NCBI RefSeq assembly: GCF_001677475.2
Contig: NZ_CP015229.1
Length of the DNA stretch: 64,000 nucleotides
Reading direction: 5' to 3' (one strand)
Source of the DNA: Escherichia coli
GTDB taxonomy: Bacteria; Pseudomonadota; Gammaproteobacteria; Enterobacterales; Enterobacteriaceae
Below are positions 43,497-62,870 of this stretch, piece by piece; within the stretch, counting starts at the first letter, position 1; every line of letters starts with the position of its first letter. Position numbers and translations under genes: made by a program. The notes beneath the pieces were generated by a model. It was not told the origin of the DNA. It was given only the letters and a program-made list of their open reading frames with translations, and ran no database searches.

Positions 43497-44255
43497 TCAG
43501 AAACGCAAGATCTGCGCCAGACTTGCGATTACGCCAGCGGGATTTTCCCGGTGCGCGTTATGTCCGGCGCGAGGAATGACATGGCAGTCGGCAGCCAGTT
43601 CCGTCGCCAGGGCGCGGAATTTGCTGTCACGTTCACCACATAAATAATAAAACGCAAATGTGCGGGCGCTAAGGTTAGCACGTAAATCAGGCTGAACGGC
43701 GAGAGAAGTCGCCTCCAGCATGGCGGCAAGGGTTGCGCCATTATTGTTGCTGCGCAGCGCCACCAGCTCCCGGCGTTGATCGTCATTGAGTGAGGCAAAA
43801 ACAGGCTGTTGATACCAGTCGGCAAATACCGCCGTTAACGGTTCTGTGAGAAAACGCTGCACCCATTGGCGATCGGAACGCTGACGTTCCGCACGTTGTT
43901 CAGCATTTTGCAGCCCCGGATGCCCGCCTTCGACAACAACCCCACAAAGCCCCGCCAGCCCCTGGCAAGCCGCCATCATCGCCACCCGTCCGCCAAGCGA
44001 GTACCCCACCAGCCAGAAGTCAAGGATGTTGTAACTAACCAAGGTTTTACGCAGTAAGTCGGTGACATCATCAAATCCATCGACGCTAATCGCCGCCGAA
44101 CCACCGTGACCTGGGAGATCAACATACAACCGTGAGTAGTCGGCAAACACCTCGCCCACTTCTTGCCATTCATGGCAATCGCCGGAAAAACCGTGCAAAA
44201 ACACCAGCCAGGGTAAACCTGGTTTACCGTGTTTTGCCTGCGCGTGCAGGATCAT
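43497..44255 (-). CDS. menH: 2-succinyl-6-hydroxy-2,4-cyclohexadiene-1-carboxylate synthase
   Basis: 252-aa alpha/beta-hydrolase ORF with GYSLGGR nucleophile elbow. Confidence 0.9.
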
Positions 44256-45922
44256 AAATGGCTTACCTGCGCCAGCAGTTGCTGGAGTGTTTGCGCACCA
44301 TCGGTGTCGTTAACCACCATTTCAATTACCGTGGTGGTCGGCGTGCGCCAGGCATCGGCAAGTGCAGTTTCAAGTTCCTGCCAGTTTTGCGGACGATGAT
44401 ATTTCAGCTCGAACATCGCGGCGGCGTGCTCAAAATGGACGTTTTGCGGCATCAGATAGAAACGCTCGCGCTCGTTTTTCGGCGTTGGCAACAGCGAGAA
44501 AATTTGCCCGCCGTTGTTGTTCACCACAATTAATACCAGCGGCGCGGAAACCTGACGTAATAACGCCAGCGCGTTGAGATCGTAAAGAGCTGAGAGATCG
44601 CCCACTATCGCCAGCGTCGGTTTGCCGCTTGCCCGCTGTACGCCTGCGGCGGTCGAAAGCAGTCCGTCGATACCGCTGGCCCCACGGTTGCTGTACACCG
44701 GGAAACCAGCCGGAAGTTGCGAAAGCGCATCTATCAAACGTACCACCAGGCTGTTGCCAACAAACAGTTGCCCCTGTTCAGGTAAATAGTCGCAGATGCG
44801 ATGCGCCAGTTGTGCTTCGCCAAACGCATCGCGACGGGCAATAACCGCCTGCATTGCCTGTTCCGCCAGGCGCGGAATTTCAACGCACCAGGGCTGGCGT
44901 TTTTCTGCCGGATGCTGCTCCAGCCAGTCGGCAATATTGGCAATTAAGCGACGTCCGCGATGGTGTGCCGGATCAAGTCGCCCTTCGATGTCATCAACAA
45001 TCCAGTACTCTTCCGGTTCACAGCTTGCCTGCCATTGCAGGAGCCGTTTGCCCGTCAGGCTGCTTCCCAGTTGCACCACAATTTGTGCCTGTTGCAGTTC
45101 GCTGGTCGCTTTGGCATTGCCTAACCAGAGATCGGCACACGGCAGCGGCTGTCCGGTTTGCGACAGCACGTCGCCAATCAGCGGCCAGCCAAGAGTTTGC
45201 GCCCACAGTGCAACTTTTTTGCCCTCTTCCGCACTCATGCGCCCGGCAACCACCACGCCGCGCTTTTGTCGCCAGAAGAACCAGTCGCGCTGTTTTTCAC
45301 TTTCCAGACGAGGCGCTTCACGCAGCCACGGTTTGTCGTCCTGCCACCAGTCGCCCAGCCGCTGTTGCCAGCTAAGCCCGGTGTCGTCCATTTCGCCATA
45401 CAGCGGTTCAGCAAACGGGCAGTTGATATGGACTCCACCAGCATGAAGCGTACCGAGAGCGTGGTCGATGGTAGAAACCAGCCAACGTGCGGGGATATCC
45501 TGGGTCGGGCGCGGCAGTGAAATACTATGCGTGGGGTGAGAGGCGAACATTCCCGGCTGACGAATCGCCTGATTCGCGCCGCAGTCAATTAGCTCCGGCG
45601 GGCGATCGGCGGTTAACAGGATCAGTTTTTCTCCGGTTAACCCGGCTTCAATCAGTGCAGGATAGAGATTTGCTACCGCCGTGCCGGAGGTCACAATCAC
45701 AGCCACCGGCTGCTTGCTGACTTTCGCCAGCCCCAGCGCCAGATGCCCCAGTCCACGCTCATCGAAATGGGTGTGGTGAATGAATGCGGAATTCTCCGCC
45801 GCCGCTAACGTTAACGGTGTAGAACGCGAGCCAGGGGCGATACAGATGTGTCTGACGCCGTGACGCGTTAATGCTTCCAGAATGACCGCCGCCCAGCGTC
45901 GGTTAAATGCGCTTACTGACAT
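44252..45922 (-). CDS. menD: 2-succinyl-5-enolpyruvyl-6-hydroxy-3-cyclohexene-1-carboxylate synthase (ThDP-dependent)
   Basis: Start [37 protein letters not shown]; ORF-track start at 46273 is an in-frame upstream extension. Confidence 0.93.
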
Positions 45923-46010
45923 GAGTTTGTCCGGTATCAATATTGCGGCTAAGTATAAGGAGCTACAAAAATAGATTATTGATATGAATCGGTAATGATG
46001 CGACTCATTA

Positions 46011-47306
46011 CTATTCCATTTGTAATAAAGTACGCAGCCCTGCCGCTTTGTTGTCGATTTCCTGCCACTCTTGCTCGGGGTCGGAACCACGGACAATGCC
46101 CGCGCCAGCATATAGCCGCACGACATTGCCGCTAATTTTTGCTGAGCGCAGGGAAACGCAGAATTCGCTTTGTTGTAATGAGAGATAGCCCGCAGAACCG
46201 GCGTACCATTCTCGGGTGAACGGTTCGTGACGGGCGATAAACTGTCGCGCCAGATCGCGCGGTAAGCCAGCAACTGCTGCCGTTGGCTGCAACTGATGTA
46301 AACAGATCACATCATCCGCTTTGTTGAGTGCAGTCCAGATACAGCGGCGAAGATGCTGCACTTTACGCAGACGCAGTACCTGCGGCGGTAAAACATCCAG
46401 CGTCAGGGTATCGGCCTGCAATCGTTGGCAGATATCTTCCACCACCAACATGTTCTCACGCTGGTTTTTATCATCTGCCATCAGCCACTCACCTAGCTGC
46501 TGCGCCTGCTTGTCATCAGGATGATTTGCTACCGTTCCCGCCAGCGCTTCAGTACGCAGCGCTTTGTCACGCCGCCGCCATAACCGTTCCGGTGAAGAGC
46601 CAAGAAAAGCATTTTCGCCATCAAAGGCCATGTAAAAATGGTAGCAGTTCAGATTAAGCCGACGACTGGCAGCCATCATCGCTGCCGCATTGACCGGACT
46701 TGCGAAATGCAGGTCAGTTGCCCGAGCAAGCACCACTTTGTCGAGCTCACCTTCGGCGATGGTTTTCGTTGCCAGTTCGATTAATTGCGTCCAGCCCGAT
46801 TTATCCGGCCAGTGTTGTTCTCGCGTGGTGGTTAAATGTAACCCAGACAAAGGCTTGATACTCACCAGTGCGGCGATAAATTCTTTTGCCTTGATTGCAT
46901 CGTGCTGAAGGGAGCTTTCGCTGAATAGCGTTAGCCGCAGCGTGGCTTTACCGCCACAACGTCGCCATTCCAGGCGTGGTAAAAGTAAATTGCCCTGCGA
47001 CGGGTCAAACGCATTCAGCCCCCAGATGCGTAAGTCGGCGTGTTCCGGGTGCTGACGAAGAAAACATTGTGCCTGGTCCAACGACGTAAAACGGGTAATC
47101 GCGCCCAGGACAGCAGCTTCTTCATCACCATTACGTTGTTGCCAGTAGAATTGCGGGTACGTTTGCTGACTGGCCAGCCAGCTCAAGGCATCAAAAGCGT
47201 CATTGAGAGGGAAAGGAATATCAATAACCCGAATGCCGGGTGTCGCCGGAATCTCTTGCGACAAATGGCGCAGTAGATTTTCCAGCGCCGTAGTAAGTGA
47301 TTGCAC
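46011..47306 (-). CDS. menF: Isochorismate synthase (menaquinone-specific)
   Basis: 431-aa chorismate-binding ORF. Confidence 0.93.
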
Positions 47307-47384
47307 GCGGACCTCTCCCTGTTAAAAGCCTCACATTATACGGGGTACTACAAAAAAAATGCAGTACCCCGGTGTAGGGAGGTT

Positions 47385-47690
47385 TTAACGGCGTGCCAGC
47401 AACAGTCCTAGTACCAGCCCAACGGCCGCGCCCACACCAATTCCTTGCCAGGGTTTTTCGTGGACGTAGTCATCAGCACGATAAACAGCCTGCTTCGCCC
47501 GATAGTAATAACTGTCTGAAGCCTGGCTAACCCGTTTTTTCACATCATCCAGCGCTTTTTCTGCACGCGCTTTCAGCTCAACATATTTCTGATCGGCGGG
47601 ATCGCCAGAGGAGCGGAGCACCTCTTCCAGTGTTTCACTAAGCAGCGTCAGGTCATCATCGATACGTGTATCACCAAACTGATTAGACAT
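47385..47690 (-). CDS. elaB: Ribosome-associated tail-anchored membrane protein ElaB
   Basis: 101 aa, DUF883 pattern with C-terminal TM GIGVGAAVGLVLGLLLARR. Confidence 0.9.
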   Translation of the reverse strand: MSNQFGDTRIDDDLTLLSETLEEVLRSSGDPADQKYVELKARAEKALDDVKKRVSQASDSYYYRAKQAVYRADDYVHEKPWQGIGVGAAVGLVLGLLLARR

Positions 47691-47744
47691 TCTCGTTCTC
47701 CATTTGCGTAAAACCTGTCACTAACTATAGACAAGGGTTATTGA

Positions 47745-48206
47745 TTACGCCTGAATTACCTCGCGTGCCATCCCAATGTGTGGGATACCATCTTCTTCAT
47801 AGACCTCCGTCACAGGGATAAAGCCAAAACTCTGGTAGAAGTTTTGCAGATGCGCCTGCGCCCCGAGGTAAACAGGTTTATCAGGCCAGTGACGCGTACA
47901 TGTTTCGAGTGTTTTATTCATCAGCTGCTGCCCCACTTTTTCGCCACGCAACGCTTCACTAACAATCACCCGACCAATAACGACCGGCTCAAGATCATCA
48001 TCACTTTTCAGAATCCTCGCATACGCCACCAGTTCATCATTTTTCCAACCGAGAATATGGCGATTATCCCCCGTCAAATCATCACCATCGATATCCTGAT
48101 AAGGGCAATTCTGCTCAACAACAAACACCGCGCAACGCAGTTGTAATAAGGCATAAAGCTGGGAAACCGATAATTCAGAGTGATGCAGATCTTGCCATTC
48201 AATCAT
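47745..48206 (-). CDS. elaA: GNAT-family N-acetyltransferase ElaA
   Basis: 153-aa ORF with acetyl-CoA-binding motif. Confidence 0.9.
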   Translation of the reverse strand: MIEWQDLHHSELSVSQLYALLQLRCAVFVVEQNCPYQDIDGDDLTGDNRHILGWKNDELVAYARILKSDDDLEPVVIGRVIVSEALRGEKVGQQLMNKTLETCTRHWPDKPVYLGAQAHLQNFYQSFGFIPVTEVYEEDGIPHIGMAREVIQA

Positions 48207-48270
48207 AATGCTCTCCTTTTAGATGTATGCCTTATACTAGCCGGAATATTTTTTGAAACGTGATGAACTC

Positions 48271-49188
48271 ATGGAATTAATTTTTTTAGGTACTTCAGCC
48301 GGTGTGCCAACCCGTACGCGCAATGTCACGGCAATATTGCTTAACCTGCAACATCCGACCCAGAGCGGACTTTGGTTGTTTGACTGCGGTGAAGGCACCC
48401 AGCATCAGCTACTGCATACCGCCTTTAACCCTGGAAAACTGGATAAGATTTTTATCAGCCACCTTCATGGCGATCATCTCTTTGGTTTACCCGGCTTGCT
48501 GTGCAGTCGTTCTATGTCAGGCATTATCCAACCCTTAACGATTTATGGTCCGCAAGGTATCCGTGAATTTGTGGAGACTGCGCTGCGGATTAGCGGCTCA
48601 TGGACCGATTATCCGCTGGAAATTGTCGAAATTGGCGCTGGCGAAATTCTCGATGATGGCCTGCGCAAAGTAACCGCTTATCCGCTGGAACACCCACTGG
48701 AATGTTATGGCTATCGTATTGAAGAACATGATAAACCGGGTGCATTAAATGCCCAGGCATTAAAAGCTGCTGGCGTGCCGCCTGGCCCACTGTTTCAGGC
48801 ATTAAAAGCGGGCAAAACAATCACGCTGGAAGATGGAAGGCAGATTAACGGCGCAGATTACTTAGCTGCTCCAGTGCCAGGTAAAGCGCTCGCTATTTTC
48901 GGCGATACCGGCCCCTGCGATGCCGCACTTGACCTGGCTAAAGGTGTCGATGTCATGGTGCACGAAGCGACGCTGGATATAACCATGGAAGCCAAAGCCA
49001 ATAGTCGCGGCCATAGCTCTACACGCCAGGCTGCGACACTGGCCCGTGAGGCTGGAGTCGGTAAGCTAATCATTACCCACGTCAGCTCGCGCTATGATGA
49101 CAAAGGTTGTCAGCACCTGTTACGTGAATGTCGGTCAATTTTCCCGGCGACTGAACTGGCGAATGATTTCACCGTGTTTAACGTTTAA
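48271..49188 (+). CDS. rbn: Ribonuclease BN / RNase Z (metallo-beta-lactamase fold)
   Basis: Start [18 protein letters not shown]; HLHGDH zinc-binding motif. Confidence 0.93.
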
Positions 49189-49206
49189 CTCTGCTTACTA
49201 CTAAAA

Positions 49207-49230
49207 ACAGGGCGAAACTTGCCCTGTTAT
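49207..49230 (+). terminator. Hairpin after rbn
   Basis: acagggc-GAAACTT-gccctgt followed by TTAT. Confidence 0.45.
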
Positions 49231-49375
49231 CGCAACCCGCGCTACATATATCCACCCACACGGGAATATTGAGCGATTTTTGATATTTATTCATCTCCTC
49301 ACGCACTATATTCAGAGCAATAAGTTGCCTCTTTTTATCTTCATTCAGCACAACCTTTGCAACTAAAAGGAGCCT

Positions 49376-50599
49376 ATGATGGTTACAGTTGTCAGCAATT
49401 ATTGTCAATTATCTCAAACCCAACTCTGTCAGACATTTGCAGAAAGATTTACTGTGACCGAGGAATTACTGCAGTCTTTAAAAAAAACAGCGTTATCCGG
49501 AGATGAAGAAAGCATTGAGTTACTGCATAATATTGCGTTAGGTTATGATGAATTTGGAAAAAAAGCTGAAGATATTCTTTACCATATTGTTAGAACCCCA
49601 ACAAATGAAACCCTATCGATTATCCGACTTATCAAAAATGCCTGTTTAAAATTATATAATTTGGCACATGCCGCAACCAACTCCCCCCTTAAACCAGCTG
49701 GTCCGGACAATTCAGATGATCTCCTGTTCAAAAAGCTATTCTCCCCGTCAAAATTAATGACAATTATCGGTGATGAAATTCCTCTTATATCAGAAAAACA
49801 GTCGCTTTCAAAGGTACTTTTAAATGATAAGAATAATGAACTGAGCGATGGTACAAACTTCTGGGATAAAAATCGTCAATTAACCACGGATGAAATAGAT
49901 TGCTATCTTCAGAAGATCGCCGCTAATGCAAAAAATACTCAAGTCAATTATCCTACTGGTCTCTACCTCCCCGATTCCAACAGCACTTACCTGGAAATCG
50001 CTCTCAATGATAATATTAAGAGCGATCCATCATGGCCGAAAGCAGTCCAGTTATTCCCCATAAATACTGGCGGACACTGGATATTAGTTTCGCTACAAAA
50101 AATAGTTAATGAAAAAAATAACACACAACAAATAAAATGCGTCATATTCAACTCATTACGTGCACTAGGCCATGATAAAGAAAATTCACTTAAGCGTGTC
50201 ATTAATAGTTTCAATTCTAAATTCATGGGGGAAATGCCGAATAATGATAATATAACAGATCATTTAACTGAACCAGAGATAATATTTTTACATGCCGATC
50301 TTCAGCAATATTTAAGCCAAAGTTGCGGTGCATTTGTGTGCATGGCAGCCAAAGAAGTAATTGAACAAAGGGAAAGCAATTCTGACAGCGCCCCCTATAC
50401 GTTATTAAAAAACTATGCTGACAGATTTAAAAAATATTCAGCAGAAGAGCAGTACGAAATTGATTTTCAACATCGACAGGTAAACAGAAATTGTTATTTA
50501 GATAAATATGGCGATGCAAATATCAATGATTATTATAGAGACTTAGAAATAAAACACTCACAACCCCAAAACAGAGCATCAGGCAAAAGAGTAAGTTAA
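49376..50599 (+). CDS. elaD: Deubiquitinase-like cysteine protease ElaD (ULP/CE clan)
   Basis: AT-rich [22 protein letters not shown]... with catalytic region ...[10 protein letters not shown]... and downstream Cys. Confidence 0.85.
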
Positions 50600-50616
50600 C
50601 ATCATTGTTAGTCAAT

Positions 50617-50648
50617 TCGACCAGTCAGCAAATATGCTGACTGGTCGA
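50617..50648. repeat. Perfect inverted repeat (13-bp arms) downstream of elaD
   Basis: tcgaccagtcagc-AAATAT-gctgactggtcga; no adjacent T-run. Confidence 0.5.
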
Positions 50649-50988
50649 ACATAGTTTGCTAAAAAGTCATCACTGACTGATGCCAGTCACACCATCCGCC
50701 AGTTCAATCTGCGGGTATTTCCAGCGTATCGCGGCACGCGATTGCTGGTCTGTTGATGTAGTGGATTGTTGTTGCTGACTTTTCTTACCCTCAGATTTCT
50801 GCACCCTGTCAATTCAATCTACCAATATATAACATAATTATTTTTTATTTCTCATATGAATTCCTTTTTAAAATAGCGAAGTCACTGAAAAAATATTTTT
50901 TGTATATTCCTACCAACCGTAATAAAATAAACGTTCATAACTCATTATAAATAATAATGAAATAACGCCTTTTATTAATAATTTACAT

Positions 50989-51960
50989 ATGAAAAAAATA
51001 ACACCTCTTTGTTTTATATCATTACTACTATCACTTCCTTTTATTATTTTTTACCAACCCTGGGTCAATGCATTACCGCCAACGCCCCGACACGCAAGTC
51101 CTGAGCAATTAGAAAAAACAGTTCGTTATCTTACACAAACTGTGCATCCCCGTAGTGCCGACAATATTGATAATCTGAAAAGGTCCGCAGAGTATATAAA
51201 AGAGGTCTTTGTCAGTAGCGGTGCCAGAGTTACCGCGCAGGACGTCCCCATTACGGGTGGCCCCTACAAAAACATTGTTGCTGATTATGGTCCTGCCGAT
51301 GGACCGCTGATTATTATTGGTGCGCACTATGACTCTGTCAGTAGTTATGAAAATGATCAATTGACCTATACGCCGGGCGCGGATGATAACGCCAGCGGCG
51401 TGGCAGGATTACTCGAACTGGCACGTTTGTTACAGCAGCAAGCACCGAAAACTGGCGTGCAGCTGGTCGCCTATGCGTCGGAAGAACCGCCCTTCTTTCG
51501 TAGCGATGAAATGGGGAGCGCGGTACATGCAGCTTCGCTTGAGCGTCCAGTGAGATTAATGATAGCGCTGGAGATGATTGGCTATTACGACTCTGCGCCT
51601 GGTAGTCAGGATTACCCTTACCCGGCAATGTCCTGGCTTTATCCCGATCGGGGAGACTTTATTGCCGTGGTCGGCAGAATGCAGGATATCAACGCCGTTC
51701 GTCAGGTAAAAACGGCATTGTTGTCATCCCGGGATTTATCTGTTTATTCTATGAATGCCCCTGGGTTTATTCCCGGTATTGATTTCTCTGATCACCTTAA
51801 TTATTGGCAACACGATATTCCCGCCGTAATGATTACCGACACCGCTTTTTATCGTAATAAACAATACCACTTGCCCGGTGATACCGCAGACAGATTGAAT
51901 TATCAGAAAATGGCTCAGGTAGTGGATGGGGTTATAACTTTGTTATACAACAGTAAATAA
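50989..51960 (+). CDS. yfbL: Secreted M28-family aminopeptidase-like protein
   Basis: 323 aa, signal peptide, GAHYDS and DDNASGVA metal-ligand motifs. Confidence 0.8.
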   Translation: MKKITPLCFISLLLSLPFIIFYQPWVNALPPTPRHASPEQLEKTVRYLTQTVHPRSADNIDNLKRSAEYIKEVFVSSGARVTAQDVPITGGPYKNIVADYGPADGPLIIIGAHYDSVSSYENDQLTYTPGADDNASGVAGLLELARLLQQQAPKTGVQLVAYASEEPPFFRSDEMGSAVHAASLERPVRLMIALEMIGYYDSAPGSQDYPYPAMSWLYPDRGDFIAVVGRMQDINAVRQVKTALLSSRDLSVYSMNAPGFIPGIDFSDHLNYWQHDIPAVMITDTAFYRNKQYHLPGDTADRLNYQKMAQVVDGVITLLYNSK

Positions 51961-52062
51961 TAAAAATTTCTCGAGGCGGGTCCAGAAAAAGCGACATGTA
52001 CATTTTATTTTCCCTCGTCTGTTTTAAGATGCGAAACATGAAATTCAACGGAGGAAAATAAA

Positions 52063-52566
52063 ATGGGAATGATTGGCTATTTTGCAGAAATTGACTCAGA
52101 AAAGATTAACCAACTGCTTGAGTCTACTGAAAAACCCTTAATGGACAATATTCATGACACGCTTTCAGGATTACGCCGACTGGATATTGATAAACGCTGG
52201 GATTTTTTACATTTTGGCCTGACAGGCACCTCTGCTTTTGATCCCGCGAAGAATGATCCGCTGAGTCGTGCCGTGCTTGGTGAACACAGCCTCGAAGATG
52301 GCATAGATGGCTTCCTGGGATTGACCTGGAATCAGGAGTTAGCCGCGACAATCGATCGCCTGGAATCACTGGATCGAAGTGAGCTGCGTAAACAGTTTTC
52401 CATTAAACGACTCAATGAAATGGAGATTTACCCTGGTGTGACCTTTTCAGAAGAGTTAGAGGGGCAGCTCTTTGCTTCGATCATGCTTGATATGGAAAAG
52501 CTGATTAGTGCATATCGACGTATGCTGCGACAAGGGAATCATGCGCTGACGGTTATTGTTGGGTGA
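52063..52566 (+). CDS. yfbM: DUF1877-family protein YfbM
   Basis: 167-aa ORF MGMIGYFAEIDSEKINQLLESTEKPLMDNIHDTL... Confidence 0.8.
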   Translation: MGMIGYFAEIDSEKINQLLESTEKPLMDNIHDTLSGLRRLDIDKRWDFLHFGLTGTSAFDPAKNDPLSRAVLGEHSLEDGIDGFLGLTWNQELAATIDRLESLDRSELRKQFSIKRLNEMEIYPGVTFSEELEGQLFASIMLDMEKLISAYRRMLRQGNHALTVIVG

Positions 52567-52583
52567 TGGGGTCAGGGCACCAT

Positions 52584-52616
52584 AAAAAAACCGCCGAACA
52601 TGTCGGCGGCTTTCTG
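52584..52616. terminator. Bidirectional intrinsic terminator (nuo operon end / yfbM)
   Basis: aaaaaaa-ccgccga-ACATG-tcggcgg-ctttctg; on the minus strand the hairpin is followed by a T7 run directly after the nuoN stop. Confidence 0.65.
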
Positions 52617-52633
52617 ACTTACAAACTGACTGC

Positions 52634-54091
52634 TTACATCAGCGGCATTGCCAACCGCACAATGCTAATCAGCGGTTGCGGCCATACACCCAGCACCAGT
52701 ACCAACAGTGCAGAGATCAGCACCACGATACCGCCCGCGCTGTACTGCCAGTTTGACGGTGCATCGCGACCCGGTTGTTCCGGTGCGTGCAGGTACAGGC
52801 TCACCGCCACGCGCAGGTAGTAGTAGAGGCCGATTGCCGAACCGACAACCACGGCACCCACCAGCCACCACAAGTGTGCCTGGACACCGACCGCCAGCAC
52901 GTAGAACTTACCGATAAAGCCCAGCGTCATCGGGATACCGGCCAGAGACAGCATCATCACCGTCATCACTGCCGCGAGGATCGGACGATGCCAGAACAGA
53001 CCGCGGTAAGAGAACAGGGAATCAGCATCTGGGCCACGATACGGGCTGGACATCAGGCTGACCACGCCGAATGCGCCGAGGCTGCTGAACAGATAACCGG
53101 CCAGGTAAACCCCTACCGCTTCCATCGACATCTCGCCGGTTTGCAGCGCAATCAGCGCCACCAGCAGATAGCCGAGGTGAGAGATAGACGAGTAACCGAG
53201 CAGACGTTTGATGTTGGTCTGGCTCAGCGCCATCAGGTTACCGAAGATGATAGAGGCAAAGGCGATAATCGCCAGCACCACGCGAATCGCTTCGCTGTCA
53301 CCCACCGGTGCGTAGAGGAACAGACGCATCACCACACCGAAGATAGCGATTTTGCTCGCCGTCGCCAGGAAAGTGGAAACCGGCGCAGGCGCGCCCTGGT
53401 ATACGTCTGGCGTCCACAGGTGGAACGGCACCAGAGAGAGTTTGAAGCCGAGGCCAACAATCATCAGGCCGAAACCTGCCAGCAACAGCGGCTCGTTGAG
53501 CATACCGTCGCCGAGGTTTTTACCCAACGCGACAAACGACAGGTCGCCAGACTGCGCATACACCAGCGCCATACCAAACAGCAGGAAAGAAGACGCTGCG
53601 GCAGAGAGAATGGTGTATTTGATACTGGCTTCCAGCGAACGTTTCTGGCGGAAAGCGTAACCGACCAGGCCAAACAGCGGCAAAGAGATCAGTTCGATAC
53701 CGAGGAACAGAGACGCCAGATGGTTGGCATTCGCCAGCAGGATCCCGCCCAGGGCGGCAATTAACACCAACAGGTAGAACTCGTCCTTGTTGTCGTTATA
53801 GCCTTCAAGCCACGGGTAGGCGAAAGTACAGGTGGCGAGGCTCGCCAACAATACCAGCCCGGTGTAAAGCATGGCGAAACCATCAACGCGCATCAGTGGC
53901 GTAACGTCCATAGCGCCCGCCTGGCCGACAAACCAGAGCGAAACCAGCGCCGCGTTAAGCCCAATAACCGAGAGCGTAGCGTTGAGGAAATGATTGCGTC
54001 GCCACGCAATGGAGAGCATCACAACCACCACCGTCAAGCCGACGATCAGCAACGGTAGCAGTGCGATCAGGTTTTGTGGAGTTATTGTCAT
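52634..54091 (-). CDS. nuoN: NADH:quinone oxidoreductase subunit N
   Basis: 485-aa polytopic antiporter-like subunit. Confidence 0.95.
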
Positions 54092-54097
54092 GGCGAT

Positions 54098-55627
54098 TTA
54101 CGGCCTTGTAGTAGTAACGGAATTAACAAACCACTGCTGGATATTGCCAATCGCGGAATGCGAGGTATCCAGAATCGGCTGCGGATAGAAGCCCAGCAGT
54201 ACCAGCAGCACCACCAGCAACAGGATCATAAACAGCTCACGCAGCGACATCCCTGGCAGTTCCTGGCTGGCAATCTGGCTTTTCGCTTTACCGAAGTAAG
54301 CGCGATGCAACATCGCCAGCGAATAAACAGATGCAAAGACCAGCCCAAAGGTAGAGATAACGGTAATCACCGGGACAACCTGGAAGCTGCCGAACAGAAT
54401 CATAAATTCGCCGACGAAGTTACCGGTACCAGGCATCCCAAGCGTTGCCACCGCAAAGAACAGTGACAGTGCTGGCAGCCATTTCATCTTGCTCCACAGA
54501 CCGCCCATCATGCGCATGTCGCGGGTATGGATACGTTCATAAAGCTGACCGCAGAGAATAAACAGACCCGCCGCCGACAAGCCGTGCGCAATCATCTGGA
54601 TTACCGCGCCCTGGTAGGCCAACTGGCTGCCGGTATAGATAGCAATCAGCACGAAGCCCATGTGGGAAACCGAGGTGTAGGCGATCAGACGTTTGATATC
54701 GGTCTGGGCGAAGGCCATCCACGCACCGTAGAAGATGCCGATAACACCCAGCCACATGGCGATTGGCGCGAACTCTGCCGACGCGTTCGGGAACAGCGGC
54801 AGTGAGAAACGCAGCAGACCGTAAGCAGCGGTTTTCAGCAAGATCCCCGCGAGGTCCACGGAACCGGCGGTCGGAGCCTGGGAGTGCGCATCCGGTAGCC
54901 AACCATGCAGCGGCACCACTGGCATTTTGACCGCGAAGGCGATGAAGAAGCCCAGCATCAACAGATATTCCACACCACTGGACATTGGCGTATTCAACAG
55001 CTCTTCATAGTTGAAGGTCCAGACGCCGGTCGCATTGTAGTGAACAAAAACCAGCGCCAGGATGGCGATCAACATCACCAGACCACTCGCCTGGGTGTAA
55101 ATGAAGAACTTGGTTGCCGCCGTGATACGCGTTTTACCGTCAGAGGCTTTATGCCCCCACAGTGCGATCAGGAAGTACATCGGCACCAGCATCATTTCCC
55201 AGAAGAAGAAGAACAGGAACATGTCGATGGCAAGGAACACGCCGATAACACCGCCCAGGATCCACATCAGGTTGAGGTGGAAGAAGCCCTGATATTTTTC
55301 GATCTCTTTCCACGAACAGAGTACCGCCAGCACACCGAGCAGACCGGTCAGCACGACCATCAGCAACGACAGCCCGTCAATGGCGAGATGAATAGAGATA
55401 CCAAAACGCGGGATCCACGGCATGTCGAATTCAGACTGCCACTGCGGGATTCCGGCGGATTGCGTCAGTGAATAACCGCCCTGCAACCACAGTTGCAGCG
55501 ACAGCGCCAGCGTCAATCCCATGGTGATCAGCGCGATCCAGCGCGGCACCTTGACGCCAAAGCGTTCGGTCTGCCAGCACAGGAAGCCGCCAATAAAGGG
55601 GATTAGTATTAACCAGGGTAATAACAT
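54098..55627 (-). CDS. nuoM: NADH:quinone oxidoreductase subunit M
   Basis: 509-aa antiporter-like subunit. Confidence 0.95.
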   Translation of the reverse strand: MLLPWLILIPFIGGFLCWQTERFGVKVPRWIALITMGLTLALSLQLWLQGGYSLTQSAGIPQWQSEFDMPWIPRFGISIHLAIDGLSLLMVVLTGLLGVLAVLCSWKEIEKYQGFFHLNLMWILGGVIGVFLAIDMFLFFFFWEMMLVPMYFLIALWGHKASDGKTRITAATKFFIYTQASGLVMLIAILALVFVHYNATGVWTFNYEELLNTPMSSGVEYLLMLGFFIAFAVKMPVVPLHGWLPDAHSQAPTAGSVDLAGILLKTAAYGLLRFSLPLFPNASAEFAPIAMWLGVIGIFYGAWMAFAQTDIKRLIAYTSVSHMGFVLIAIYTGSQLAYQGAVIQMIAHGLSAAGLFILCGQLYERIHTRDMRMMGGLWSKMKWLPALSLFFAVATLGMPGTGNFVGEFMILFGSFQVVPVITVISTFGLVFASVYSLAMLHRAYFGKAKSQIASQELPGMSLRELFMILLLVVLLVLLGFYPQPILDTSHSAIGNIQQWFVNSVTTTRP

Positions 55628-55857
55628 AGCTAAGTATGTCCCTTATATTTACTCCTGCTCAGGCTATCTCACTCGCCAGCCCGAATCCCGGCAGTGCTCG
55701 CAATCCTCACGTACTTAAGTACGCTCCGGTTGCTGTGCGCTGGCGGTATCCGGTCTGACTTCGCCGATGACGCCTGTACTTCAGGAACAGTTACCTAAAA
55801 TTTATTCTTAGTTCACAGACCCGGCGCAACGCCGGGTATATTCACTCAGCCAACAAC

Positions 55858-57699
55858 TCAACGCAGTACCATCAACAGTGCCAGCACCACGACCGCACCG
55901 ATGCTCATGGATGCCACATACCAGCGCAGATAACCGTTCTCGCTTAACAGCAGACCTTTACCTGCAAAGCGGGAAAGGACAGCCGGGATGTTCATCATTG
56001 AGTTCAGCGGATCGCGTTTCAGCAACCAGGCAATACCCAGGAACGACTTGACGAACACTTTGTCATACAGCCAGTCAAATCCCCAGGCGTTGTACCACCA
56101 GGTGCCCAGCAGACGGCCCGGCGCACTGTTGGCGATGGAAGTCACCAGAGTACGTTTACCCAGCCACAGCCAGGCTGCCAGCAGAATGCCGACCACCGCG
56201 ACCACGCCAGAGGTAATTTCCAGGGTCAACATGCTGCCGTGCGCCAGCTCCGTCGTTTGCGGGAGCACGCCCTGCAGCGGCGGTACAATCAGTGCGCCAA
56301 CGAAGGTGGAAAGGATCAGCAGCACAATCAGCGGCAGGCTGTGAGTTATCCCTTTCACGGCGTGAGCGTGAATTTGTTCTTTTCCGTGGAAGACGATGAA
56401 AATCATACGGAAGGTGTAAAGCGAGGTCATAAACGCACCGACCAGACCTGCCACCATCAGATTGATATGACCATTCGCCATCGCACCCGCGAGGATCTCA
56501 TCCTTACTGAAGAAGCCCGCAGTGACCAGCGGCAGTGCCGACAGTGCTGCGCCACCCACCAGGAAGCAGAGATAAACCAGCGGAATAGATTTACGCAGAC
56601 CGCCCATCTTGAAGATGTTCTGTTCGTGATGGCAGGCCAGAATGACGGAACCGGATGCCAGGAACAGCAGCGCTTTAAAGAACGCGTGAGTCATCAAGTG
56701 GAAAATCGCCGCATCCCATGCCTGCACGCCAAGCGCGAGGAACATGTAGCCAATCTGGCTCATGGTAGAGTAAGCGAGAACACGTTTGATATCAGTCTGT
56801 ACCAGCGCGGCAAAACCGGCCAGCAGCAGCGTAACCGCCCCGACAATGCCCACCAGATGCAGAACTTCCGGGGTCATCAGGAACAGGCCGTGGGTACGGG
56901 CGATCAGGTAGACACCTGCGGTTACCATCGTTGCGGCGTGGATCAGCGCGGAGACAGGCGTCGGGCCCGCCATCGCGTCGGCAAGCCATGTCTGCAACGG
57001 CAACTGCGCAGATTTACCGACCGCACCGCCCAGCAGCATCAGCGTCGCCCACATCAGCATGTTATTGCCGTCAGCAAAGTGCGCTGGTGCCAGTTCCACC
57101 ATTTCGCGGAAGTTCAGGGTGCCCAGTTCGTTGTAAAGAATGAACAGCGCGAAAGCGAGGAAGACGTCACCCACACGGGTCACGACGAACGCTTTCATTG
57201 CCGCTGCGCCATTCTTCGGATCGGTGTAATAGAAACCGATCAGCAGATAGGAGCACAGGCCCACGCCTTCCCAGCCGAGGTACATCAACAGCAGGTTATC
57301 GGCAAGCACCAGAACTACCATGCTGGCGATGAACAGGTTGGTGTAAGCGAAGAAGCGAGAGTAGCCCTCTTCACCGCGCATATACCAGGAGGCGTACATG
57401 TGAATAAGGAAACCCACACCAGTGACCACCGAGAGCATGGTCAGCGACAGGCCGTCCAGCACCAGGTTAAAACCGATGTTAAAGTCGCCTACCGACATCC
57501 ACGTCCACAGCGGCTGGCTATATGCCTGCTCACCGTTAGCGAAGAAGTCAACGCCGATAAAGGCGGTTACCAGCGCCGCCAGGCCCACAGAGCCAACGCC
57601 GACGATCGCTGAGACGTTTTCAGACCAGCGCCCACGGGAGAACGCCAGCAGGACGAAGCCAATCAATGGCAAAATAATGGTTAAGGCAAGCATGTTCAT
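55858..57699 (-). CDS. nuoL: NADH:quinone oxidoreductase subunit L
   Basis: 613-aa antiporter-like subunit with long C-terminal extension. Confidence 0.95.
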
Positions 57700-57998
57700 C
57701 CGCGCATCTCACTTACTGAATCGATGTTCAGGTTCTGGCGACGACGGTGAAGTTGCAGCAGCAGCGCAAGGCCGATACTTGCTTCTGCCGCCGCGAGGCT
57801 GATGGCGAGAATGTACATCACCTGACCGTCGGTCTGGCCCCAGTAGCTTCCGGCGACCACAAAGGCCAGCGCGGAGGCGTTAATCATGATTTCCAGACCA
57901 ATCAGCATAAACAGCAGATTGCGACGGATAACCAGACCGGTTAAGCCAAGAACGAATAAGATTGCCGCGAGGATCAGTCCATGTTGTAAGGGGATCAT
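57696..57998 (-). CDS. nuoK: NADH:quinone oxidoreductase subunit K
   Basis: 100-aa three-TM subunit. Confidence 0.95.
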
Positions 57999-58549
57999 GC
58001 GTGCTCCTCCGTTTTTCTTTTCGCGCTGTCGTCTTTACGATTGCTCAGCACTTCACCCGCTCGCTCTTCACGACCAACGTGGAAGGCCACAACCAGACCC
58101 GCGAGCAGCAGCATAGAAGCCAGTTCCACCGCCAGTACGTAAGGCCCGAACAGCGTAATACCCACTGCTTTAGCACTGATTGGCGTACCGTCGATACCCT
58201 GATCGTTAACACCGAGAATGGCGTAAACAATCACCACCAGCATGATGGCCGACAAAATTGCCGGACCAATCCACACCTGCGGTTTCAGCCACTGGCGTTC
58301 CTGTTCAATTTCTGAACCGCCCAGGTTGAGCATCATCACCACGAACACGAACAGCACCATAATGGCACCCGCGTAGACGATAATTTCCAGCGCACCGGCG
58401 AAGTAAGCGCCCAGTGAGAAGAACACCCCAGAGATCGCCAGCAGCGAAATAATCAGGTACAGCAGTGCGTGTACCGGATTGGTATGGGTGATCACTCGCA
58501 AGGTCGCAAGTATGGCTATCAGGCCACAGATATAAAAAGCGAACTCCAT
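57995..58549 (-). CDS. nuoJ: NADH:quinone oxidoreductase subunit J
   Basis: 184-aa membrane subunit. Confidence 0.95.
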
Positions 58550-58560
58550 TGCCCCTCTCC

Positions 58561-59103
58561 TTACGGTAACAGGCTCTTGACGTCGATAGGCTTGGCTTCG
58601 TTCTCTGCTTCGCCCTTATCTTTGCCGTCGATTGCCATACCTGCCATCCGGTAGAAGTTATATTCCGGGTATTTGCCCGGACCGGAGATCAGCAGATCCT
58701 CTTTCTCGTAAACCAGATCCTGGCGCTTGTATTCCCCCATTTCGAAATCCGGGGTTAACTGAATCGCCGTGGTCGGACAGGCTTCTTCGCACAGACCACA
58801 GAAAATGCAGCGTGAGAAGTTGATGCGGAAAAATTCCGGATACCAGCGACCGTCTTTGGTTTCTGCTTTTTGCAGCGAGATACAGCCGACCGGGCAGGCT
58901 ACCGCGCAGAGGTTACAGGCTACGCAACGCTCTTCGCCGTCCGGATCGCGGGTCAGAACGATACGACCACGATAACGGGGCGGCAGATAGACCGGCTCTT
59001 CCGGGTACATTCGCGTTTCGCGTTTGGCGAACGCGTGCAGGCCGATCATCCAGATACTACGAACCTGGGTGCCGAAACCTACTAACAATTCTTTTAAGGT
59101 CAT
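58561..59103 (-). CDS. nuoI: NADH:quinone oxidoreductase subunit I (2x[4Fe-4S])
   Basis: 180 aa with two CxxCxxCxxxCP motifs. Confidence 0.95.
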
Positions 59104-59117
59104 GGTCTTATTGCCCC

Positions 59118-60095
59118 TTATTGCGCCTGCCAGAGAATGACAGCCGCCGTTACCAGCAAGTTGATCAGCGTCAGCGGCAGGCAGATTTTCCAGCCGAAGG
59201 ACATTACCTGGTCATAACGCGGACGCGGTAACGACGCACGAATCAAAATGAACATCATCATAAAGAACGCGGTTTTCAGCGCGAACCAGATGAATGGCGG
59301 TAACAACGGGCCTTGCCAGCCACCGAAGAACAGCGTCACCATCAGTGCAGAGATGGTCACAATCCCGATGTACTCACCCACGAAGAACAGACCGAACTTC
59401 ATGCCGGAATATTCAATGTGGTAACCATCCGCCAGTTCCTGCTCGGCTTCCGGCTGGTCAAACGGGTGACGGTGACACACCGCCACGCCCGCGATGGCAA
59501 AGGTAATAAAACCAAAGAATTGCGGGATGACGTTCCACACATGCGCCTGGCTGTTGACGATGTCGGTCATGTTGAATGAACCGGCCTGCGCCACCACGCC
59601 CATCAGGGAAAGCCCGAGGAACACTTCGTAGCTCAGAGTCTGCGCAGAAGCACGCATCGCCCCCAGCAACGAGTATTTGTTGTTACTTGACCAGCCCGCA
59701 AACAGCACCGCGTAGACCGCCAGACCGGCCATCATCAGGAAGAACAAAATCCCGATGTTCAGGTCGGCAACCACCCAACCTGGGCTGACTGGCACAATCG
59801 CAAAGGCCAGCAGCAGCGAGGTAAAGGCAATCATCGGTGCCAGGGTAAAGATGACGCGATCCGAGAATTTCGGGATCCAGTCTTCTTTGAAGAACATCTT
59901 GATCATGTCCGCGACCAGCTGGAGCGAACCGCCCCAGCCAACACGGTTAGGTCCGTAACGGTTCTGGAACAGACCCAGCAGGCGACGTTCGCCAAAGCTC
60001 ATGAATGCCCCACAGGTGACAACCACCAGCAGGATCACCACCGCTTTGAGGATGGTCAGCAGGATCTCAATCAGTTCCGGTGATATCCAACTCAT
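59118..60095 (-). CDS. nuoH: NADH:quinone oxidoreductase subunit H
   Basis: 325-aa membrane subunit. Confidence 0.95.
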
Positions 60096-62824
60096 TGTTG
60101 TGCCTCCTTGAGATCCTCAAGATGCGCGCCAGCCAGCACCGGAGCAATGCCGGACATACCCATCGGCAAGCCAACCTGCCCTGCCGTCAGCCCTTCGGCG
60201 ATTTCAACCGGCAGCGTGACCGTGTTGCCATCGTAGCTAAAGGAGACACGAGTGCCCGCGTTCACACCCAACTTCGCGGCATCCGCCGGGTTAAGTTTGA
60301 TGTACGGCTGTGGCATACGGCTCTGGAAAACCGGAGCACGCTGTGACAATTCATCGCTGCCAAACAGGTGGTAGTACGGCGCGATACGCCATTTCCCTGC
60401 CTGCGGCTGGAAGCGTGCCGGTACGCTGGTGAAGTAATCCAGACCATTTTCGCTGGTTTCAAACAGACGCACACCTGGATCGCCAAAGCGCAGTTTGCCG
60501 CCCACTTCGTCCTGGAATTTGTTCCACGCCTGCGGGGAGTTCCAGCCCGGTGCCCAGGCAAACGGCACTTGCGAACGGTGCGCGGTCGGCTGGTTGTTAC
60601 CTTCCATCGAGAAGGTGAACATGGTGTCAATATCCTGCGGCTGACGCGGCTCATGAACGCTGATATTGGCGCGCATGGCGGTACGACCGCTGTAACGGTG
60701 CGGTTCACGGGCCAATTTCTGCCCACGAATACGGAATGTCGCATCCGGCGCAGCATCTTTGATACCCGCCAGTTCGGGGATTTTCGCCACAACAGCGTCA
60801 ATCACATGGTCGAGCTGCGTCCAGTCCACTTCACGGCTCAGCAGGGTGCTGTGCAGCGAGTGCAGCCAGCGCCAGCTTTCCAGCATGACAGTTTTGCTGT
60901 CGTAATAAGCCGGATCGTAAACCTGGAAGAAACGTTGGGCGCGGCCTTCGTTGTTGATCACCGTACCGTCGCTTTCAGCAAAGCTGGCAGCAGAAAGTAC
61001 CAGATGGGCGTTTTCCATAATCGCTGTGCGTTGATGGTCAACCACCATCACCAGCGGCGCTTTAGCCAGCGCAGCATTCACGCGGGTAGCGGAAGCGTGA
61101 CGATGCAGATCGTTTTCCAGCACCACCACCGCGTCGGCGCGTCCGGTTTCCAGTTCGGTCAACGCTTCTTCAAGCGAACCGCCCCCCATAATGCCCAGCC
61201 CCATGCTGTTTACAGAGCGAGCAATCATGGTGATACCAACGTCAGCGCCGCGACCTTTCAGGGCTTTTGCGACGTTAGCCGCAGCCTGAATCACTTCAGC
61301 GCTACCGGCGTTTGTCCCGGAGATAATCAACGGTTTCTTCGCACCTGCCAGTGCCTGCACGATGACATCGATTTTGCTTTGCAGCTCAGGTTCGATACCG
61401 TCAACCGCTGGTGCGGAGTTGTCCAGCGCATGAGCGATGGCAAAACCTAAACGCGCCTGATCTTCAACCGGTGCGCGGTAAGTCCACGCCGCGATATCAT
61501 CCAGACGGGTGTCATCAACGTTGGTAACAAACAGCGGATGCTTCGCACGTTGGCCGATGTTGAGGATTGCCGCAATTTGCCAGTCAGCCACTTTCTGTGC
61601 TGCCGCCATTTCGCGCGCTTTACCTTTCACCGCCTGACGCACCGCCAGTGCGACACGAGCGCCAGTCTGAGTAACGTCTTCGCCCAGCACCAGTACCGCA
61701 TCGTAAGATTCGATTTCGCGCAGAGCCGGAGTATAAATGCCGCCTTCACGCAGCACTTTTAGTGCCAGTTGCAGACGTTCCTGCTCACCGTGAGCGATAC
61801 CGGTATAGAAGTTTTCTTCGCCCACCAGCTCACGCAGCGCAAAGTTGCTTTCCACGCTGGCACGCGGAGAACCAATACCGATCACTTTCTTCGACTGACG
61901 CAGAATATCTGCCGCGCCCTGCATTGCCTGTTCGGCGTTGAGGGTAATGAAATCATCGCCACGACGCTGTACTGGCTGACGCGGACGATCTTTCAGGTTG
62001 ACGTAGCCGTAACCGAAACGACCACGGTCGCAGAGGAAGTAGTGGTTTACTGTACCGTTGTAACGGTTTTCGATTCGACGCAGTTCGCCATAACGCTCGC
62101 CGGGGCTGATGTTACAGCCGATGGAACATTGCTGGCAGATGCTCGGCGCAAACTGCATATCCCATTTACGGTTGTAACGCTCGGAGTGCGTTTTGTCGGT
62201 GAATACGCCGGTCGGGCAAATTTCGACCAGGTTACCGGAAAATTCGCTTTCCAGCGTGCCGTCTTCCGGGCGACCGAAGTAGACGTTGTCGTGCGCACCG
62301 TAAACGCCCAGATCTGTACCGTCAGCGTAATCTTTGTAGTAACGCACGCAGCGGTAGCAGGCGATGCAGCGGTTCATTTCGTGAGAGATGAACGGCCCCA
62401 AATCCTGATTACGGTGGGTACGTTTGGTGAAACGGTAGCGACGGAAGCTGTGTCCGGTCATCACGGTCATATCCTGAAGATGACAGTTACCGCCTTCTTC
62501 ACATACCGGACAATCGTGCGGGTGGTTGGTCATTAACCACTCGACCACACTTTCACGGAACTGTTTCGCTTCTTCGTCGTCAATGGAAATAAAGGTGCCA
62601 TCGGAAGCCGGTGTCATACAGGACATCACCAGGCGACCACGCGTGTCTTCCGCGTTTTGGTATTGCTTCACCGCACACTGGCGGCAAGCACCGACGCTTC
62701 CCAGCGCCGGATGCCAGCAAAAGTAAGGAATATCAAGGCCCAGAGACAGACAAGCTTCCAGCAAGTTGTCCGCTCCGTTGACCTCGTATTCTTTGCCGTC
62801 TACATGAATTGTAGCCATTAGCAT
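60092..62824 (-). CDS. nuoG: NADH:quinone oxidoreductase subunit G
   Basis: 910 aa; N-terminal 2Fe-2S/4Fe-4S Cys clusters and molybdopterin-oxidoreductase-like domain. Confidence 0.95.
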
Positions 62825-62870
62825 GCTTCCAGTTTTCTCAGTCAGAGACTGAGCGTTAATCGAAATTCGG

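What the first reader, a model, noticed from the sequence alone, without database searches (positions are those of the whole stretch)
52567..52633. yfbM abuts nuoN directly with a shared terminator
A single A7-hairpin-T-rich structure separates yfbM from the convergent nuoN. From memory, K-12 has yfbN, yfbO and yfbP between these genes. Their absence here marks another small strain-variable slot at the end of the nuo operon.
Basis: partly seen in the sequence, partly recalled or inferred. Interest (0 to 1): 0.2.

Follow-up and report, generated by a model that had tools for sequence, protein, structure and literature searches.

The report
Common yfbM–nuoN junction, nuo terminator
The 67 bases between yfbM and nuoN hold the conserved hairpin terminator of the nuo (respiratory complex I) operon, and the lack of K-12's yfbN/yfbO/yfbP genes here is the ordinary, majority arrangement of E. 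coli at a small, long-standing variable spot.

Summary
yfbM (52063-52566, +) and nuoN (52634-54091, -) converge on a 67-bp spacer. It holds one A7 / 7-bp GC hairpin / T-containing element, 24 nt from each stop codon.

On the nuoN strand this is a textbook intrinsic terminator (hairpin plus U7). On the yfbM strand the tail is weak (4 U in 8).

The window's state is the common one. A contiguous yfbM-spacer-nuoN junction occurs in 4,213 of 5,426 complete E. coli genomes (about 78%). K-12-type yfbNOP occurs in about 17-19%. Rarer forms include yfbN/yfbO variants and IS insertions.

Relatives change the polarity I first assumed. A yfbN homologue sits just downstream of the nuo terminator in E. fergusonii, two unnamed Escherichia species and two other enterobacterial genera. 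The empty allele is therefore most likely one old deletion, shared with E. whittamii, and not a strain-specific loss.

The hairpin, T-run and following ATGGT are conserved in all these taxa. K-12 alone has the T-run cut to T5.

Ordinary and essentially known; low interest.

The parts
52063..52566 (+). yfbM (DUF1877 protein, 167 aa), convergent with nuoN
   Evidence: ORF. Pfam PF08974 E=1.7e-35. 166/167 aa identical to K-12 YfbM. Matches PDB 1RYL.
52567..52583 (.). 17 nt between the yfbM stop and the A-run (TGGGGTCAGGGCACCAT). The last 6 nt (CACCAT) belong to the conserved terminator flank (ATGGTG on the nuoN strand). The first 11 nt are specific to the empty allele and of unassignable origin.
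   Evidence: Spacer alignment. Cross-taxon comparison. Similarity to junctions of occupied alleles is at chance level.
52584..52590 (-). A7 on the + strand, which is the U7 tract of the nuo terminator on the nuoN strand
   Evidence: The length varies from A6 to A9 among strains and is A5 in K-12.
52591..52609 (.). Terminator hairpin: 7-bp stem CCGCCGA/TCGGCGG with 5-nt loop ACATG
   Evidence: -11.8 kcal/mol. Fold z = -4.71 on the minus strand and -2.68 on the plus strand. The hairpin sequence is identical in all the E. coli and E. whittamii loci that keep it, apart from one loop base in K-12. The six GC core pairs are almost invariant across 8 alleles and taxa: five invariant, the sixth broken in one sequence.
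52610..52633 (.). 24 nt between the hairpin and the nuoN stop codon (CTTTCTGACTTACAAACTGACTGC). This is the weak U-containing tail for the yfbM transcript and the 3' UTR of nuoN.
   Evidence: 4 T in the first 8.
52634..54091 (-). nuoN, last gene of the nuoA-N operon
   Evidence: ORF. 485/485 aa identical to K-12 NuoN. Annotated as nuoN in all matching genomes.

Best explanation
The spacer contains the ancestral Rho-independent terminator of the nuoA-N operon. It has a GC-rich 7-bp hairpin followed by U7 on the nuoN strand, 24 nt after the nuoN stop. In this genome the small, fast-evolving gene cassette that elsewhere lies beyond that terminator is missing. That cassette always includes yfbN and variably includes yfbO, yfbP or other orphan ORFs. 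Its absence leaves the yfbM stop codon 24 nt from the other side of the same hairpin. The hairpin is then the only structured element available to stop yfbL-yfbM transcription. Read in that direction it has an upstream A-tract and a poor U-tail, so it probably acts as a weaker terminator or pause site of the bidirectional type seen between convergent genes. The empty allele is the majority form in E. coli. It is most likely a single old deletion that is also present in E. whittamii, not an event specific to this strain. Shown: the anatomy, the conservation, the allele frequencies and the gene orders in relatives. Inferred: terminator activity on either strand, and the direction of change (loss versus gain).
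For: Anatomy and fold statistics.

Conservation of the terminator. The same hairpin follows nuoN in K-12 and in every Escherichia allele examined. Hairpin, T6-7 and ATGGT are conserved after nuoN in E. fergusonii, Escherichia sp. E2748, a Superficieibacter-like genome and one further genus.

Frequencies. The junction is contiguous in 4,213-4,303 of 5,426 complete E. coli genomes. K-12-type yfbNOP is present at 80% coverage or more in 946 genomes, and any island match in 1,015.

Single origin of the empty allele. The 66-68 bp spacer is nearly identical in the window, 118UI, O157:H7, ST131, ST2747, UTME-12, strain SCPM-O-B-8794 and E. whittamii.

Old occupancy. YfbN homologues form only 19 clusters, all from Escherichia or a few relatives. 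In all five YfbN-homologue contexts retrieved, yfbN lies just downstream of nuoN on the same strand. Amino-acid identity to K-12 YfbN is about 46% in the other genera, 70% in E. fergusonii and 87% in Escherichia sp. E2748. Two E. coli alleles are only 79% identical to each other.
Against: - The cassette is AT-rich (39.7% GC against 57.2% for nuoN and 50.6% for the window). That is the classic sign of acquired DNA and would fit repeated gain.
- K-12-type yfbNOP is at least 99% identical in 985 genomes, consistent with a recent spread.
- No sequence of the occupied alleles can be recognised at the deletion junction, so the deletion is not directly demonstrated.
- For function, no covarying base pairs support the hairpin (conservation only).
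- In K-12, published Term-seq tables list no 3' end at this hairpin, and a Rho-dependent termination region lies at 2389543(-), antisense to yfbP (PMC7815308). The hairpin therefore does not stop all nuo transcription there, although K-12 has only U5.
Confidence: 0.8

Rival explanations
1. The empty junction is ancestral. The yfbN-containing cassettes are horizontally acquired islets that inserted, more than once or once followed by spread through flanking homology, next to the nuo terminator. K-12 gained genes; the window lost nothing.
For: Low GC of the cassettes (37-40%). At least 99% identity of the K-12-type island across 985 genomes. The empty spacer is shared by E. coli phylogroups and E. 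whittamii. YfbN and YfbO alleles are mosaic between loci, which indicates recombination. K-12's right junction is clearly derived, since it cuts the conserved T-run to T5 and removes ATGGT.
Against: yfbN occupies the same position and orientation after nuoN in E. fergusonii, two other unnamed Escherichia species and two other genera. Its divergence roughly tracks taxonomy, which independent insertions would not easily produce. No terminal repeats or mobility genes flank the island.
Confidence: 0.3
2. The hairpin terminates only the nuo operon and is not a shared terminator. yfbM transcripts read through it into antisense nuoN and are ended by Rho or by collision with nuo transcription.
For: The yfbM-strand tail has only 4 U in 8 (CUUUCUGA). 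The fold z-score is weaker on that strand. Rho-dependent termination of transcripts running antisense into neighbouring genes is common in the K-12 data, including on the other side of this very hairpin. Bidirectional terminators between convergent genes can be poor intrinsic terminators and depend on polymerase collisions (bioRxiv 10.1101/2022.10.23.513370).
Against: An upstream A-tract with a GC hairpin is the usual form of two-way intrinsic terminators. The hairpin lies 24 nt from the yfbM stop and no alternative structure exists in the spacer.
Confidence: 0.35
3. The adjacency is an assembly or sampling artefact, meaning a collapsed or mis-joined region.
For: None found.
Against: The identical junction occurs in more than 4,200 complete genomes from independent projects.
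Confidence: 0.01

Closest known systems
E. coli K-12 MG1655 yfbM-yfbN-yfbO-yfbP-nuoN locus (b2272-b2276)
   Same: Same flanking genes. NuoN is 100% and YfbM 99.4% identical. The same terminator hairpin follows nuoN, with one loop base different.
   Different: K-12 has 2,610 bp with three genes where the window has 67 bp. K-12's T-run after the hairpin is T5+CTGAAAAAG instead of T7+ATGGTG.
Canonical Rho-independent (intrinsic) terminators, and bidirectional terminators between convergent gene pairs in E. coli (Ju et al. 2019, as summarised in bioRxiv 10.1101/2022.10.23.513370)
   Same: GC-rich stem-loop followed by a U-run on the nuoN strand. An A-run on the other side lets the same hairpin be read from both directions. 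It lies between convergent genes.
   Different: Activity was not measured here. The yfbM-direction tail is U-poor. The published class is described as often not resembling intrinsic terminators, whereas this one does on one strand.
Small strain-specific islets of E. coli genomes (the K-islands/O-islands of K-12 versus O157:H7 comparisons; from general knowledge)
   Same: A low-GC block of a few kb holding orphan genes, present in some strains and absent in others, at a fixed site between core genes.
   Different: Here the occupied state appears older than the species, with several gene combinations and highly diverged alleles. YfbN is 79% identical between two E. coli strains, while flanking genes are 97-98% identical at DNA level.

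Membership tests
Rho-independent (intrinsic) terminator, nuoN strand | GC-rich stem-loop (5-14 bp stem, 3-8 nt loop) | tested here: met
   7-bp stem with 6 GC pairs, 5-nt loop, -11.7 to -11.8 kcal/mol. z = -4.71.
Rho-independent (intrinsic) terminator, nuoN strand | U-rich tract immediately 3' of the stem | tested here: met
   UUUUUUUA directly after the stem, 7 of 8.
Rho-independent (intrinsic) terminator, nuoN strand | Located shortly downstream of the last gene of the operon and conserved in relatives | tested here: met
   24 nt after the nuoN stop. Hairpin plus T6-7 is conserved in 8 alleles and taxa, including other genera.
Rho-independent (intrinsic) terminator, nuoN strand | RNA 3' ends map to the U-tract in vivo | tested here: inconclusive
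   No data exist for an empty-allele strain. In K-12 (U5 variant) no curated 3' end lies at the hairpin, and a Rho region lies about 500 nt downstream (PMC7815308 supplements). Those lists are thresholded.
Rho-independent (intrinsic) terminator, yfbM strand (the 'shared' reading) | U-rich tract immediately 3' of the stem | tested here: not met
   CUUUCUGA has 4 U of 8. Only the hairpin and the upstream A-tract are present.
Strain-variable accessory slot (presence/absence polymorphism between core genes) | Alternative contents at the same site in conspecific genomes | tested here: met
   Empty in 4,213-4,303 genomes. K-12-type yfbNOP in 946-1,015. Twenty-four genomes match the island at only 80-90% identity, and the one examined carries a diverged yfbN/yfbO pair without yfbP. 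There are also IS200/IS605, IS66 and IS3/IS1 variants.
Mobile genomic island | Integrase or transposase, flanking direct repeats, or tRNA attachment site | tested here: not met
   No terminal repeats flank the K-12 island. There are no mobility genes among yfbN, yfbO and yfbP (Pfam). There were no PADLOC defence hits.

The most novel reading that the evidence does not exclude
The stretch between the nuo terminator and yfbL may be an old, multi-allelic cassette site of Escherichia and related genera. Fast-evolving orphan genes are shuffled there (yfbN always, plus yfbO, yfbP, a 191-aa ORF with sub-threshold SUKH-like hits, a 409-aa ORF, and yfbM). Which cassette abuts the terminator would then change how the nuo operon ends: U7 hairpin termination in the empty allele, against U5 plus downstream Rho-dependent termination in K-12. 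Because loss of yfbO or yfbL is reported to make K-12 resistant to phage N4, the presence/absence polymorphism might be maintained by phage pressure.
Probability: 0.12. Interest if true: 0.35.

Novelty: already known. Interest (0 to 1): 0.12.

Why it matters
It matters little. This is a correct note about gene content: the window carries the majority E. coli arrangement at a site where the laboratory reference K-12 is atypical.

There are three practical consequences.

1. K-12 is a poor reference for this junction, including for how the nuo transcript ends, because its U-tract is truncated by the neighbouring yfbP.
2. yfbN, yfbO and yfbP are Escherichia-restricted orphan genes missing from about four fifths of E. 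coli. Phenotypes assigned to them in K-12 (N4 sensitivity for yfbO; retron-toxin 'blocker' calls for yfbN and yfbO) cannot be generalised.
3. The site is a small example of a long-lived presence/absence polymorphism next to an essential-operon terminator.

Tried and rejected
1. The consensus terminator scan gave 0 sites at the hairpin and also missed the K-12 copy. I rejected this as a probable tool artefact after a fixed-stem scan.

2. My first reading, that K-12 gained an island and the empty state is ancestral, rested on low GC, on E. whittamii and on the uniform spacer. I downgraded it after finding yfbN downstream of nuoN in E. fergusonii, two unnamed Escherichia species and two other genera.

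3. I looked for deletion or insertion breakpoints by microhomology (CCAT or GCAC repeats) between the empty spacer and the junctions of occupied alleles. Local alignment scores were at chance level against shuffles (572/2000 and 854/2000; 675-2289/5000 for the left junctions). Only the CACCAT next to the A-run is shared, and that is part of the conserved terminator flank.

4. I searched for terminal direct or inverted repeats on the K-12 island. There was nothing convincing.

5. Defence-system membership of YfbN, YfbO, YfbP and YfbM: no PADLOC hits. Pfam gives only sub-threshold UBA-like hits for YfbN and TPR hits for YfbP.

6. Rfam on the spacer gave only sub-threshold chance matches, Fluoride at 15.9 bits and ryfA at 14.7 bits.

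7. A literature search for 'yfbM' returned only poultry papers, where the term means yolk-free body mass. Two further Term-seq papers had no usable supplement entries.

8. I asked whether yfbM has its own terminator in K-12. There is only a weak AT-rich fold (z = -1.76), so I make no claim.

Full report
**What is there.** The window carries yfbL (50989-51960, +) and yfbM (52063-52566, +), converging on nuoN (52634-54091, -) and the rest of the nuo operon. yfbM is a DUF1877 protein (Pfam E=1.7e-35). It differs from K-12 YfbM at one residue, and NuoN and NuoM are identical in protein sequence to K-12. The finding's coordinates, 52567-52633, are exactly the 67 bp between the two stop codons.

The spacer reads TGGGGTCAGGGCACCAT-A7-CCGCCGA-ACATG-TCGGCGG-CTTTCTGACTTACAAACTGACTGC. 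The hairpin sits 24 nt from each stop codon.

**Is it more than chance?** The hairpin alone is worth -11.8 kcal/mol. The 81-nt region folds far better than dinucleotide shuffles on the nuoN strand (z = -4.71, 0/200) and moderately better on the yfbM strand (z = -2.68, 2/200).

The consensus scan reported no terminator. I believe this is because it extends the stem through the A-run/T-run pairing and so uses up the T tail. It also misses the K-12 copy. A fixed-stem scan finds this site on the minus strand as one of only two in the 64-kb window on both strands. The tail is UUUUUUUA on the nuoN strand but CUUUCUGA on the yfbM strand. Rfam has nothing significant here.

**Comparison with K-12.** MG1655 has yfbN (-), yfbO (+) and yfbP (+) between yfbM and nuoN, with 2,610 bp between the stop codons. 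The same hairpin follows nuoN in K-12, with one loop base different. The extra DNA therefore lies between the yfbM stop and the A-run. In K-12 the run is only A5 (U5 on the nuoN strand) because the yfbP-side junction cuts into it. The K-12 segment is 39.7% GC against 57.2% for nuoN. It has no flanking repeats or mobility genes.

**Frequencies in E. coli (5,426 complete genomes)**

| State at the slot | Genomes |
|---|---|
| 1-kb query across the junction, at least 80% covered in one place | 4,303 |
| Tighter 181-bp query, contiguous | 4,213 (77.6%) |
| K-12 segment, at least 80% covered | 946 (17.4%) |
| K-12 segment, any match | 1,015 (18.7%) |
| K-12 segment at 99% identity or more | 985 |
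| Island matches at only 80-90% identity (the one examined has yfbN/yfbO but no yfbP) | 24 |

- In the diverged form, YfbN is 79% and YfbO 89% identical to K-12.
- Other variants are IS200/IS605 inserted in the A-run, IS66 in yfbM, and an IS3-family element in the hairpin loop with loss of elaD through yfbM.
- Genomes with the plain adjacency include O157:H7 and ST131.
- The window therefore has the majority allele.

**Which state is older?** I first took the empty state to be ancestral. Its 66-68 bp spacer is almost identical across the window, 118UI, O157:H7, ST131, ST2747, UTME-12, strain SCPM-O-B-8794 and E. whittamii, and the island is AT-rich. Further evidence points the other way.

YfbN homologues form only 19 clusters in the large protein collection, all from Escherichia or a few relatives. 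In all five YfbN-homologue contexts retrieved, yfbN lies just beyond the nuo terminator on the nuoN strand:

| Source | Gene order after the nuo terminator (T) |
|---|---|
| E. fergusonii | T-yfbN-orf191-yfbM |
| Escherichia sp. MOD1-EC7003 type | T-yfbO-yfbN-orf191-yfbM |
| Escherichia sp. E2748 | T-orf409-yfbO-yfbN-yfbM |
| Superficieibacter-like genome | T-REP-yfbN'-yfbP'-yfbL, no yfbM; YfbP' is 61% identical to K-12 YfbP |
| A further genus | T-yfbN'-orf173-orf85-yfbL |

YfbN identity to K-12 is about 46% in the other genera, 70% in E. fergusonii and 87% in Escherichia sp. E2748. The alleles are mosaic. The MOD1-type locus has a K-12-like yfbN (95% nt) but a yfbO 98% identical to the diverged E. 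coli form.

The simplest reading is that a yfbN-containing cassette is old at this site, and that the empty allele is one old deletion now at high frequency in E. coli and present in E. whittamii. I hold this at roughly 2:1 over the reverse. The low GC, the near-clonal K-12-type island and the absence of recognisable breakpoint sequence all leave room for gain. E. albertii was uninformative because its contig ends 11 nt after yfbM.

**The terminator across taxa.** On the nuoN strand, all eight alleles and taxa show the nuoN stop, an A-rich stretch and a CCGCC(G)-loop-(C)GGCGG hairpin. Seven follow this with T6-7 and ATGGT; K-12 is the exception, with T5+CTGAAAAAG. The consensus fold keeps five core pairs invariant and shows no compensatory changes, so the support is conservation and not covariation. 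This is the conserved end of the nuo operon.

**Function: shown versus inferred.** Terminator activity is inferred from sequence. The only experimental data I could reach are for K-12. The curated Term-seq tables of Adams et al. (PMC7815308) list no 3' end at the hairpin (no entries at 23899xx or 23900xx). They do list a Rho-dependent termination region at 2389543 (-), antisense to yfbP, with Rho score 11.1 and p = 2.9e-36.

At least in the U5 variant, then, some minus-strand transcription passes the hairpin. Whether U7 does better is untested. On the yfbM strand the poor U-tail makes 'shared terminator' the weakest part of the title. It may instead act as a pause or collision site, of the kind described for convergent gene pairs.

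**What the missing genes are.**
- YfbN has only sub-threshold UBA-like Pfam hits.
- YfbP has sub-threshold TPR hits.
- YfbO has no hit in the local Pfam copy, though a precomputed PF27222 'YfbO' label appears.
- None of them matches PADLOC models.
- A preprint reports that loss of yfbO or yfbL makes K-12 resistant to phage N4 (10.1101/2025.09.29.679331).
- Another preprint lists yfbN and yfbO among 'blockers' in a retron-toxin screen.

These are leads only and do not bear on the window, which lacks the genes.

**Verdict.** The feature is ordinary: the conserved nuo terminator in the commonest E. coli allele of a small, long-standing variable site. Interest is low.

Noticed in passing
window 50600-50988: yfbK (575-aa vWA-domain gene in K-12) is missing between elaD and yfbL. 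Only its flanks remain: 50600-50709 is 96% identical to the K-12 elaD-yfbK junction, and 50730-50988 is 72% identical to the yfbK 5' and promoter side. A 44-aa ORF at 50670-50804(-) is annotated as a hypothetical protein at the equivalent position in other genomes. The same state occurs in strains 118UI and ST2747.
   Followed up: partly
window 49376-50599; L012, L003, L018, L021: elaD (ElaD/SseL deubiquitinase, 407 aa) is present here but absent in ST131-type genomes. In E. fergusonii and two other genera a CheW/response-regulator gene (327-333 aa) lies between yfbK and rbn, where E. coli has elaD or nothing. The whole rbn-nuoN interval is a patchwork of presence/absence genes.
   Followed up: partly
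window 52565-52574; L005 5987-5996: The spacer just after the yfbM stop contains ATGGGGTCAG. This is an exact 10-nt match to the terminal sequence of an IS3-family element (ISEcB1-like) that in strain TUM17668 is inserted in the loop of this same hairpin. Only 5 of 3,000 random 80-nt pieces of the window score as well. It could be chance, or an IR-like target for the IS.
   Followed up: partly
window 55628-55857 (nuoM-nuoL intergenic); L001 15043-15205: The nuoL-nuoM intergenic region inside the operon is 230 nt here and looks unrelated to K-12's 163-nt version, which carries a REP-like element. O157:H7, ST2747 and TUM17668 also have the 230-nt spacing.
   Followed up: no
window 44000-64000: The best match of this 20-kb stretch to any of 5,426 complete E. 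coli genomes is only 98.3% identity (nearest: AST215, ST2747, PCN033). The source lineage is therefore not closely represented in that collection.
   Followed up: no
L001 11999-12024 (K-12 2389998-2390023); PMC7815308 supplements: In K-12 the nuo terminator's U-run is shortened to U5 by the adjacent yfbP-side junction. Published data show a Rho-dependent termination region about 500 nt further on, antisense to yfbP, and no catalogued 3' end at the hairpin.
   Followed up: partly
L006 6656-7231; L014 8001-8576; L018 6712-7287: A 191-aa ORF occupies the slot next to yfbM in E. fergusonii and an unnamed Escherichia species (81% identical to each other). It has only sub-threshold Pfam hits, to SUKH/SMI1-KNR4 immunity-type families (E = 0.01-0.1).
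   Followed up: partly
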